Shown piece after piece: positions 2,449 through 3,074 of a DNA stretch of 21,912 nt. Numbering within the stretch: the first letter of the stretch is position 1; every line of letters begins with the position of its first letter. The notes beneath the pieces are model-generated. The model was not told the origin of the DNA, ran no database searches, and was given only the letters and a program-made list of their open reading frames with translations. The DNA is taken from positions 1-21,912 of the IMG/VR virus record IMGVR_UViG_2778261446_000009; one strand, written 5' to 3'. Origin of the DNA: a virus (taxonomy: Duplodnaviria > Heunggongvirae > Uroviricota > Caudoviricetes). Made by a program: the position numbers and the translations under genes.

Positions 2449-2580
2449 TTAATTTGCTCCAGATACAAGGAATCGCCGCAGCATGGCTACGGTTGGCATT
2501 TGTTACATACCGAAACGGTACGATTGTTGATTTGTACAGTGGGTTTTACGATGCCATTCCACCCATTTGGTGAGGCATTG

Positions 2581-2838
2581 ATGATGTACAGCAAATACGA
2601 TGAGGCGCAGTTCCACTTGAGGCTTACACACGAGTTGCACGCTAAGATTAAGCAGCGTGCAAAAATGAATAACAGGTCTATCAATTCCGAAATTGTGGCT
2701 ACGATGGAAGAATCACTCTCCAAACCATCACCTGTAAGCGGGTATCGTGATGAAGAAGAGAGGCTGGCCTCATTAATCTCGGAACGAGTAAAAGAAGTTG
2801 TGGCTGATATCCTTAGAAAAGAAAAAACCCGCGATTAA
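2581..2838 (+). CDS. mnt: Mnt-like ribbon-helix-helix repressor (85 aa)
   Basis: AQFHLRLTHELHAKIKQRAKMNNRSINSEIVATMEESLSKPSPVSGYRDEEERLA aligns with P22 Mnt (PHFNFRMPMEVREKLKFRAEANGRSMNSELLQIVQDALSKPSPVTGYRNDAERLA). RBS GGTGAGG precedes the ATG at 2581. The tool ORF 2185..2838 is an upstream extension antisense to the tailspike gene. A candidate promoter TTGTTG-N17-TACGAT lies at 2524-2552. Confidence 0.85.
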   Translation: MMYSKYDEAQFHLRLTHELHAKIKQRAKMNNRSINSEIVATMEESLSKPSPVSGYRDEEERLASLISERVKEVVADILRKEKTRD

Positions 2839-2846
2839 GCGGGTTT
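2822..2846. terminator. Bidirectional intrinsic terminator between convergent mnt (+) and the ant operon (-)
   Basis: AAAAAA-CCCGC-gattaa-GCGGG-TTT. On the minus strand the hairpin is followed by TTTTTTC; on the plus strand by TTTAGTT. The mnt stop codon sits in the loop. Confidence 0.6.
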
Positions 2847-2852
2847 AGTTGG

Positions 2853-3074
2853 TTAGTTATCAAAAAGTCCGTACGTTTCTTCTTCTTCAGGTGTAAGGGG
2901 AAGAATCTCTACTCTATCTATAGATACCTTTTCAATGTACCCATGAGGTCTACTTAAAATTAAAGCTCTCTCATGCCACAGAACTCCAAGAATGTGATAC
3001 CTTCCAGCATCGCCTTTTACCCTGGCTCTTCCTTTGATTCTTGGCGGCATAATGCCATATTTTTTCTTTGCCAT
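2853..3074 (-). CDS. Hypothetical protein (73 aa), translationally coupled to the upstream antirepressor gene
   Basis: ATG at 3072-3074 overlaps the stop of the upstream gene (TAATG). The ORF ends 10 nt before the terminator hairpin. No recognisable motif. Confidence 0.55.
   Translation of the reverse strand: MAKKKYGIMPPRIKGRARVKGDAGRYHILGVLWHERALILSRPHGYIEKVSIDRVEILPLTPEEEETYGLFDN

What the first reader, a model, noticed from the sequence alone, without database searches (positions are those of the whole stretch)
2521..2855. Mnt homolog in a non-canonical, convergent position with a shared bidirectional terminator
In P22, mnt is divergent from arc-ant. Here the Mnt homolog sits at the far end of the antirepressor operon, transcribed towards it, and the two units share the hairpin at 2822-2846. 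The tailspike lies just beyond, so late read-through to the tailspike must run antisense through mnt. This is a different regulatory architecture from the textbook immI region.
Basis: partly seen in the sequence, partly recalled or inferred. Interest (0 to 1): 0.4.

Follow-up and report, generated by a model that had tools for sequence, protein, structure and literature searches.

The report
Orphan Mnt repressor beside tailspike gene
The small gene is a genuine relative of the phage P22 Mnt repressor, but its position next to the tailspike gene is the usual one for this branch of the family, and the antirepressor operon facing it is a separate, swappable cassette with its own regulators, so the layout is an ordinary variant of a known hypervariable phage region.

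Summary
Window 2581-2838 (+) encodes an 85-aa Mnt homolog, 48% identical to P22 Mnt (PDB 1mnt E 8e-17). It converges on an antirepressor operon and meets it at a stable hairpin (2825-2846) that encloses the mnt stop codon. The tailspike gene (553-2448, -) lies on its other side.

Compared with P22, arc-ant is missing between mnt and gene 9, as in ST64T, L, ST160, Gally, Sf101 and IME10. A different antirepressor cassette sits between mnt and gene 16. That cassette carries its own divergent cI-like repressor, an Arc-like gene and a sar-like antisense RNA.

Across about 170 retrieved loci, every close relative of this Mnt abuts the tailspike gene, and the cassette downstream is present, absent or swapped. 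Phage JEP4 has the same layout, with mnt annotated.

The only operator-like site is CATACCGAAACGGTACG (2506-2522). It sits one base before the -35 of the predicted mnt promoter, the same geometry as P22 Omnt/Pmnt, and its sequence covaries with the Mnt beta-strand residues. No Pant-like promoter faces the tailspike gene. The hairpin travels with mnt.

Verdict: real, functional, ordinary; low interest.

The parts
2506..2522 (.). Predicted Mnt operator: the 17-bp pseudo-palindrome CATACCGAAACGGTACG, with core TACCG-AAA-CGGTA.
   Evidence: It is the only copy in the window with up to 3 mismatches, apart from one chance-level site at 13907. It sits 1 nt before the -35 of the mnt promoter, exactly as AGGTCCACCGTGGACCT does in P22. 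Its sequence class covaries with the Mnt beta-strand across five classes of homolog.
2524..2552 (+). Predicted mnt promoter: TTGTTG-17-TACGAT, the positional homolog of P22 Pmnt (TTGAGA-17-TATCAT).
   Evidence: It is the best + strand hit in 2430-2600 by PWM scan (6.9). The P22 control recovered Pant at 15.4 and Pmnt at 11.9. No comparable - strand promoter exists here (best 5.1).
2550..2578 (+). Inverted repeat GATGCC...GGCAT in the mnt leader, enclosing the SD GGTGAGG (2569-2575).
   Evidence: Folds at -12.6 kcal/mol, z -2.2. Equivalent hairpins occur in ST160 (-14.1, z -3.3) and P22 (-13.9, z -2.8). It is conserved in homologs.
2581..2838 (+). mnt homolog, 85 aa (84 if translation starts at 2584): an RHH domain plus a C-terminal helix.
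   Evidence: dN 0.19-0.30 against saturated dS, and dN/dS 0.08-0.17 where it can be computed.
2825..2846 (.). Hairpin enclosing the mnt stop codon. It is an intrinsic terminator for minus-strand transcription (the ant cassette and un-antiterminated late-direction transcripts) and a weaker terminator for mnt.
   Evidence: It is conserved with the mnt 3' end irrespective of the downstream sequence.
2853..3074 (-). 73-aa ORF (phrog_4977, function unknown), the last gene of the ant cassette. It is absent from some otherwise identical cassettes.
3074..3805 (-). 243-aa anti-repressor-family gene (phrog_1726; annotated KilA in JEP4).
3890..4516 (-). 208-aa antirepressor (Bro-N + P22AR_C domains).
4502..4595 (+). 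sar-like antisense RNA: extended -10 TGcTACAAT, two stem-loops, then a T-run.
   Evidence: -33.3 kcal/mol, z -5.3. The sequence resembles the P22 Psar/sar region. Promoter score 8.5.
4590..4763 (-). 57-aa RHH (Arc-like) first gene of the ant operon.
4813..4841 (-). Promoter of the ant cassette: TTGACT-17-AATAAT, overlapped by the inverted repeat 4790-4817.
   Evidence: score 12.3.
4863..5504 (+). cI-like repressor (HTH_3 + peptidase S24 with Ser->Ala at the nucleophile position), divergent from the ant operon. It occupies the place that mnt has in P22.
553..2448 (-). Tailspike gene (P22 head-binding domain + GDSL/SGNH esterase), divergent from mnt.

Best explanation
Window 2506-2846 is a self-contained mnt unit made of an operator, a promoter, a structured leader, the mnt gene and a stop-codon hairpin. 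It belongs to a distinct specificity class of the P22 Mnt family, with beta-strand AQFHLRL instead of PHFNFRM. It lies where this class nearly always lies, directly beside and divergent from the tailspike gene, inside the hypervariable 16-to-9 'ant moron' of P22-like phages.

Relative to P22, arc-ant and the Pant promoter are absent between mnt and gene 9. The antirepressor operon that converges on mnt is an independent cassette placed in the variable slot between mnt and gene 16. That cassette brings its own control set: a divergent cI-like repressor that is probably not self-cleaving, an Arc-like first gene and a sar-like antisense RNA.

Inferred mechanism: Mnt, presumably a tetramer as in P22, binds the 17-bp pseudo-palindrome abutting the -35 of its own weak promoter and so controls its own synthesis. 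The hairpin at its 3' end stops minus-strand transcription from the ant cassette (and any un-antiterminated late-direction transcription) before it runs antisense into mnt and on into the tailspike gene, and it also ends the mnt transcript. Antiterminated late transcription reads through antisense to mnt, as it does in P22.

Shown here: homology, synteny, operator-protein covariation, absence of a Pant equivalent, hairpin conservation and purifying selection. Inferred: DNA binding, promoter activity, terminator activity, and what else, if anything, Mnt represses.
For: Homology to Mnt over both domains.

Identical layout in the isolated phage JEP4, with mnt annotated. At least 80% of window 2400-5600 is present in 26 of 5426 complete E. 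coli genomes.

P22 has 9(-) ant(-) arc(-) mnt(+) ... 16(-). ST160, Gally, 720R6, Sf101, IME10, VSe13 and Brookers have 9(-) mnt(+) with no arc-ant between them.

In the protein-seeded retrieval, about 80 of 86 loci show HeadBinding(-) Mnt(+). Only distant Mnt relatives (43-48% identity) show Arc(-) Mnt(+). Downstream of mnt lies gp16 directly (22 loci), an ant cassette with ArcLike+cI-like, or one with a P22-Arc-like gene plus or minus a second divergent Arc/Mnt-like gene.

In the operator-seeded retrieval, about 90 of 119 loci carry the site between the tailspike gene and mnt, and none carries it next to arc-ant.

Operator geometry and covariation:
- AQFHLRL goes with TACC(G/T/A)AAA(C/T)GGTA
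- PQFNLRL goes with AGACCAC-N-GTGGTCT
- PHFNFRM goes with GGTCCACCGTGGACC
- PQFNFRM goes with ATATCACCGTGATAT
- Recombinant genes with an ST160-type N-terminus and a window-type C-terminus carry the ST160-type operator.

The PWM scan recovers P22 Pant and Pmnt, but in the window it finds only the Pmnt positional homolog. No Mnt-operator copy lies near the ant promoter, and there is no P22-type operator anywhere in the window. The hairpin is stable on both strands, is called a terminator on the - strand, and is conserved with mnt in at least 7 downstream contexts. Purifying selection is evident.

Literature: the 16-9 region is a hypervariable 'ant moron'; ST64T, ST104, Para1 and L carry mnt without arc or ant (PMC2629481; PMC8022706).
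Against: Nothing here is experimental. The predicted mnt promoter is weak (score 6.9, against 11.9 for P22 Pmnt), and the simple consensus scan did not call it.

A repressor whose only visible target is its own promoter has no obvious selective rationale, yet the gene is under strong purifying selection. A further target, in cis or in trans, is therefore likely and has not been identified.

Mnt half-sites are too short to exclude weak or non-palindromic sites in the ant cassette.

The exact window-type Mnt (98-100% identity) is usually found with the 243-aa anti-repressor gene next to it, which could reflect functional coupling rather than recent common descent.

The retrieved loci are redundant (many near-identical E. 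coli prophages), and the protein-seeded set kept only the 80 closest of 458 relatives, so the counts are not independent events.
Confidence: 0.7

Rival explanations
1. One reading: one rearranged immI unit, in which this Mnt is the maintenance repressor of the convergent antirepressor operon and has been relocated to the operon's 3' end.
For: Mnt and antirepressor genes are adjacent and share a terminator. Window-type Mnt (98-100% identity) is often linked to the 243-aa anti-repressor gene. The cassette retains P22-like features: an Arc-like gene, a sar-like RNA and a P22AR_C domain.
Against: No copy of the Mnt operator lies at or near the ant promoter or anywhere else in the cassette. The cassette has its own divergent repressor in the place Mnt holds in P22. 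In sister loci the same mnt-9 unit occurs with no cassette, or with a cassette that carries a second Mnt/Arc-like divergent regulator. The operator stays next to mnt and gene 9 in every locus.
Confidence: 0.1
2. A decaying remnant: mnt is a functionless leftover of a degraded immI region, a possibility raised for phage L.
For: There is no arc-ant and no Pant next to it. The phage L paper raises this possibility for L's mnt-like gene (PMC8022706). One genome locus (L130) has an early stop codon.
Against: The ORF is intact in nearly all loci. The RHH half is almost invariant from Escherichia to Serratia and Citrobacter, while synonymous sites are saturated (dN/dS about 0.08-0.17). The operator, -35/-10, SD and 3' hairpin are all conserved, and the operator covaries with the protein.
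Confidence: 0.07
3. A gatekeeper or trans-immunity role: the conserved mnt-operator-gene 9 arrangement exists because Mnt bound about 60 bp upstream of gene 9 (together with the 3' hairpin) limits transcription entering the tailspike gene in lysogens, or because Mnt represses cognate promoters on superinfecting phages.
For: The operator is invariably adjacent to gene 9 in about 170 loci. There is strong purifying selection without a visible cis target. The literature notes that the P22 ant moron affects read-through into the tailspike gene and that Mnt and Arc may play a part (PMC2629481).
Against: No promoter faces gene 9 at the operator. No ant operon carrying this operator class was found among 119 operator-bearing loci. 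Roadblock activity of Mnt is untested.
Confidence: 0.2

Closest known systems
Phage P22 Mnt repressor and Omnt/Pmnt (immI region)
   Same: An RHH domain plus a C-terminal oligomerisation helix, 48% identical. The gene is antisense to the late operon. A 17-bp pseudo-palindromic site lies 1 nt upstream of the -35 of its own promoter. A hairpin encloses the stop codon.
   Different: The DNA-contact strand differs (AQFHLRL against PHFNFRM), as does the operator sequence. No Pant, arc or ant lies on the other side of the operator; the tailspike gene is there instead.
'mnt-only' ant morons of ST64T, ST104, L, SE1 and ST160, and E. coli/Shigella phages Gally, 720R6, Sf101 and IME10
   Same: mnt is directly adjacent to and divergent from gene 9. 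The operator and Pmnt homolog are retained and Pant is lost (PMC2629481; PMC8022706).
   Different: Those genomes have gp16 or small unknown ORFs after mnt. The window has a 2.6-kb antirepressor cassette there.
Escherichia phage JEP4 (MT740315)
   Same: The same gene order and 95.8% DNA identity over 91% of window 2400-5000. mnt is annotated as 'regulatory protein mnt'.
   Different: The tailspike body differs, and there is an AT-rich insertion next to the gene 9 leader.
P22 arc-sar-ant operon
   Same: The window's cassette has an RHH first gene, a sar-like antisense RNA over the ant start, an Ant protein with a P22AR_C domain, and a divergent repressor gene.
   Different: The divergent repressor is a cI-like HTH-S24 protein rather than Mnt. 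The Ant N-terminus is Bro-N type. There is a second anti-repressor-family gene and a 73-aa ORF. The cassette lies on the gene 16 side of mnt.

Membership tests
Mnt repressor family (P22 Mnt; Arc/MetJ ribbon-helix-helix) | N-terminal ribbon-helix-helix (Arc-like) DNA-binding domain | tested here: met
   Pfam PF03869 E 9.9e-15, residues 8-53; PDB 1mnt E 8e-17.
Mnt repressor family (P22 Mnt; Arc/MetJ ribbon-helix-helix) | Homology extends through the C-terminal helix that tetramerises P22 Mnt, which distinguishes Mnt from Arc | tested here: met
   The alignment to P22 Mnt covers residues 7-79 of 85, 48% identity. The conserved motif SKPSPVxGYR...AERLA is present. Oligomeric state was not tested.
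Mnt repressor family (P22 Mnt; Arc/MetJ ribbon-helix-helix) | Cognate pseudo-palindromic operator abutting the -35 of its own promoter | tested here: met
   Same register as P22, and it covaries with beta-strand residues across five classes. Physical binding was not tested.
Mnt repressor family (P22 Mnt; Arc/MetJ ribbon-helix-helix) | Specific DNA binding and repression | not testable with these tools
   Needs EMSA or footprinting and reporter assays.
P22-type immI region (mnt <-> arc-sar-ant) | mnt divergent from arc-ant, with Omnt overlapping the Pant start site | tested here: not met
   The tailspike gene, not arc-ant, lies across the operator. No minus-strand promoter is found there (with the P22 positive control recovered).
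P22-type immI region (mnt <-> arc-sar-ant) | Mnt operator present at the antirepressor promoter | tested here: not met
   No match with up to 3 mismatches in 2850-5000. The relaxed TACC-N5-GGTA search found nothing near 4764-4862.
'ant moron' of P22-like phages (Villafane et al. 2008) | Variable, independently expressed gene set between the gene 16 and gene 9 homologs of the late operon | tested here: met
   gp16 lies at 5914-7755 (-) and the tailspike gene at 553-2448 (-). The content between them varies among relatives (PMC2629481).
Bidirectional intrinsic terminator | GC-rich hairpin flanked by an A-tract upstream and a U-tract downstream, so that both strands read stem plus U-run | tested here: inconclusive
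   The hairpin is stable on both strands. The U-run is good only on the - strand, and the scan calls only the - strand. Termination itself was not measured.

The most novel reading that the evidence does not exclude
The tailspike-proximal Mnt of this class may be neither a relic nor a plain autoregulator. It could be a conserved gatekeeper: bound about 60 bp upstream of gene 9 and backed by its 3' hairpin, it would control how much transcription from the variable moron slot or the late operon enters the tailspike gene. Alternatively it could act in trans on incoming phages. Either role would explain why a repressor with no visible cis target stays under strong purifying selection and is always welded to gene 9.
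Probability: 0.2. Interest if true: 0.45.

Novelty: new member of a known kind. Interest (0 to 1): 0.15.

Why it matters
The practical value is a correction for annotation and for readers. An Mnt homolog next to an antirepressor operon does not mean that it regulates that operon.

The comparison yields a testable operator assignment for a second Mnt specificity class (His at the Asn8 position goes with TACC-N5-GGTA). It also shows that the operator-promoter-mnt-hairpin unit is a stable module, while the slot beside it exchanges antirepressor cassettes that carry different regulators.

The open question is modest: what an 'orphan' Mnt is for in the many P22-like phages that lack P22-type arc-ant.

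Tried and rejected
- I searched the window for the P22 Mnt operator AGGTCCACCGTGGACCT with up to 3 mismatches and found nothing.
- I searched for extra copies of the window-type operator. Only a chance-level site at 13907 turned up. The relaxed TACC-N5-GGTA pattern gave nothing in regulatory regions of the ant cassette.
- I looked for a Pant-like promoter facing the tailspike gene with a PWM scan. None was found in the window, ST160, Gally or IME10, although P22 Pant and Pmnt were recovered as controls.
- An Rfam scan of 2300-5600 gave only a sub-threshold symR-like hit (E 0.59) at the sar-like locus, so there is no curated family match.
- The genome-contig scan returned only 7 loci, too few for statistics, so I used IMG/VR instead.
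- Operator-pattern hits in unrelated phages (L013 and others) proved to be a different context with no Mnt homolog in reach. I set them aside.
- dN/dS could be computed for only 4 pairs because dS is saturated in the rest.
- I considered and rejected the idea that the hairpin became 'shared' through the new arrangement. It accompanies mnt in many contexts, and P22 mnt has a homologous one.

Full report
**1. What is in the sequence**

On the minus strand the window carries the end of a P22-like late operon. It holds a gp16 homolog (5914-7755) and a tailspike gene (553-2448) whose first 113 residues match the P22 head-binding domain (E 6e-66) and whose body is a GDSL/SGNH esterase.

Between these two genes lie the following features:
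- a cI-like HTH + peptidase-S24 gene (4863-5504, +)
- a 57-aa RHH gene (4590-4763, -)
- a Bro-N/P22AR_C antirepressor (3890-4516, -)
- a 243-aa anti-repressor-family gene (3074-3805, -; phrog_1726)
- a 73-aa ORF (2853-3074, -)
- the gene of the finding (2581-2838, +)

The mechanical ORF list extends the finding's frame back to 2185. The real start is ATG 2581 or 2584, 5-8 nt after GGTGAGG, and homologs begin MYSKYDE.

**2. Is it Mnt?**

Yes.
- Pfam Arc domain, E 9.9e-15.
- 35/73 identities with P22 Mnt across both the RHH domain and the C-terminal helix, E 1e-24.
- PDB 1mnt is the best solved relative, E 8e-17.
- tblastn finds 89 phage records with homologs, most of them annotated Mnt.
- The gene is under purifying selection. 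Against relatives, dN is 0.19-0.30 while dS is saturated, and dN/dS is 0.08-0.17 in the four pairs where it can be computed. The RHH half is almost invariant from Escherichia to Serratia and Citrobacter.

**3. The hairpin**

The hairpin AAACCCGC-GATTAA-GCGGGTTT (2825-2846) has the mnt stop codon in its loop and begins 6 nt beyond the stop of the convergent 73-aa ORF. It folds at -15.2 kcal/mol on the + strand and -13.8 on the - strand, with z about -3.3 and -3.5.

The consensus scan calls it a terminator on the minus strand only, where the tail is TTTCTTTTCT. On the mnt strand the tail is U-poor. It is therefore a good terminator for the antirepressor operon and at best a moderate one for mnt.

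This hairpin is not a product of the local arrangement. The same hairpin follows window-type mnt 3' ends in at least seven different downstream sequence contexts. ST160, Gally and P22 mnt have a homologous stop-codon hairpin preceded by an A-run.

**4. Synteny**

Gene orders, written in the window's orientation:
- ST160, Gally, 720R6, Sf101, IME10, VSe13 and Proteus phage Brookers: 9(-) mnt(+) with nothing between them.
- Phage JEP4: exactly the window's order, with mnt annotated.

In a protein-seeded retrieval (80 IMG/VR loci plus 7 species genomes), about 80 loci read HeadBinding(-) Mnt(+). Only distant relatives (43-48% identity) show the P22 order Arc(-) Mnt(+).

Downstream of mnt the content varies:
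- gp16 directly (22 loci)
- the window's cassette with the Arc-like and cI-like genes (about 20 loci)
- the same Ant genes with a P22-Arc-like gene, with or without a second divergent Arc/Mnt-like gene (about 25 loci)
- a P22-type Ant with its own Mnt-like and Arc-like pair (L032)

At least 80% of window 2400-5600 is present in 26 of 5426 complete E. coli genomes.

The literature already describes this 16-to-9 interval as a hypervariable 'ant moron', with ten types in sixteen genomes. It records mnt without arc or ant in ST64T, ST104, Para1 and L (PMC2629481; PMC8022706).

**5. Operator and promoters**

Aligning the sequences upstream of mnt shows a pseudo-palindrome ending 1 nt before a TTGnnn hexamer in every genome. 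The window has CATACCGAAACGGTACG-A-TTGTTG-17-TACGAT. P22 has AGGTCCACCGTGGACCT-A-TTGAGA-17-TATCAT, which is Omnt/Pmnt.

The palindrome class tracks the DNA-contact strand of the protein:

| Mnt beta-strand | Operator |
|---|---|
| AQFHLRL | TACC(G/T/A)AAA(C/T)GGTA |
| PQFNLRL | AGACCAC-N-GTGGTCT |
| PHFNFRM | GGTCCACCGTGGACC |
| TQFNLRL | (A)GCAC-C-GTGGTCT |
| PQFNFRM | ATATCACCGTGATAT |

Recombinant genes with an ST160-type N-terminus and a window-type C-terminus carry the ST160-type site. From my own knowledge of the Sauer and Susskind work, N-terminal residues of Arc and Mnt set operator specificity, which agrees with this pattern.

A PWM scan recovers P22 Pant (15.4) and Pmnt (11.9). In the window it finds only the Pmnt positional homolog (6.9), with no comparable promoter toward gene 9. 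The same holds in ST160, Gally and IME10.

The window has no other copy of this operator, in particular none near the strong ant-cassette promoter TTGACT-17-AATAAT at 4841-4813. It has no P22-type operator either. Scanning IMG/VR for the operator itself gave 119 loci. About 90 of them have the site between the tailspike gene and mnt, and none has it next to arc-ant.

**6. The antirepressor cassette controls itself**

The cassette has a divergent repressor gene in the place that mnt occupies in P22. That protein aligns with lambda cI, but the nucleophile serine (GNSM in lambda) is alanine (GEAM), with the lysine retained. It is therefore probably a stable, RecA-insensitive repressor and a functional analog of Mnt; this is an inference.

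The junction between the Arc-like gene and ant resembles the P22 Psar/sar region in sequence. It folds into two stem-loops with a T-run (-33.3 kcal/mol, z -5.3).

A second promoter-plus-terminator pair lies antisense to the start of the 243-aa gene.

**7. Conclusion**

The finding is real and the gene is almost certainly functional. However, it is not a relocated regulator of the neighbouring operon. It is the standard gene-9-proximal mnt module of one Mnt specificity class. A separate antirepressor cassette sits in the adjacent variable slot, and the mnt module's own terminator serves both units.

It remains unknown what this Mnt represses beyond its own promoter. Candidates are gating of transcription into gene 9 and trans-immunity. 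Neither can be tested here.

Noticed in passing
window 4502-4595 (+): A sar-like antisense RNA lies over the start of the Bro-N/P22AR_C antirepressor gene. It has an extended -10 (TGcTACAAT), two stem-loops and a T-run (-33.3 kcal/mol, z -5.3). Its sequence resembles the P22 Psar/sar region (L004 3150-3245). Rfam gave only a sub-threshold symR-like hit here.
   Followed up: partly
window 3762-3872 (+): A second candidate cis-antisense RNA lies over the start codon of the 243-aa anti-repressor gene. Its promoter is GTGACA-17-TACATT (PWM 11.4), followed by a terminator hairpin at 3838-3864 with a TTTTCTTTTG tail.
   Followed up: partly
window 4863-5504 (+): A cI-like repressor is transcribed divergently from the ant operon. 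Its S24 domain aligns with lambda cI but has Ala in place of the catalytic Ser (GEAM against GNSM), with Lys kept. It is probably not self-cleaving, so it would be a stable Mnt-like maintenance repressor for this cassette.
   Followed up: partly
window 553-2448 (-): The tailspike combines the P22 head-binding domain with a GDSL/SGNH esterase body rather than a beta-helix glycosidase. This suggests a deacetylating receptor-modifying spike. JEP4, otherwise syntenic, has a different spike.
   Followed up: no
window 2550-2578 (+): The inverted repeat GATGCC...GGCAT in the mnt leader encloses the Shine-Dalgarno sequence. Equivalent hairpins occur in ST160, Gally, IME10 and, loosely, P22. It may act as a translational brake on Mnt synthesis.
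   Followed up: partly
window 2476-2492, and twice in L004 2059-2268: The conserved hairpin-forming sequence CCGCAGCATGGCTACGG lies in the gene 9 leader. The same motif occurs twice in the P22 ant-9 spacer. It may be a module boundary or recombination sequence.
   Followed up: no
window 1-330 (-): A truncated S24 (UmuD-like) ORF at the window edge is preceded by a LexA-box-like palindrome, TACTGTATGCATATGCAGTA (307-326).
   Followed up: no
L013 7579-8109, also L017, L030, L036, L054, L060: Unrelated, GC-richer IMG/VR phages carry TATACATACCGAAACGGTACAC twice, 515 bp apart. Each copy lies about 18 nt upstream of a small ORF. The core palindrome is the same as the window's Mnt operator, but no Mnt homolog occurs within the fetched flanks.
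   Followed up: partly
L032 7550-10284; L137 4528-4956: Some sister prophages carry two Mnt/Arc-type regulators. One is a complete mnt'-arc'-ant immI-like unit on the gene 16 side, and the other is the gene-9-proximal Mnt of the window type.
   Followed up: partly
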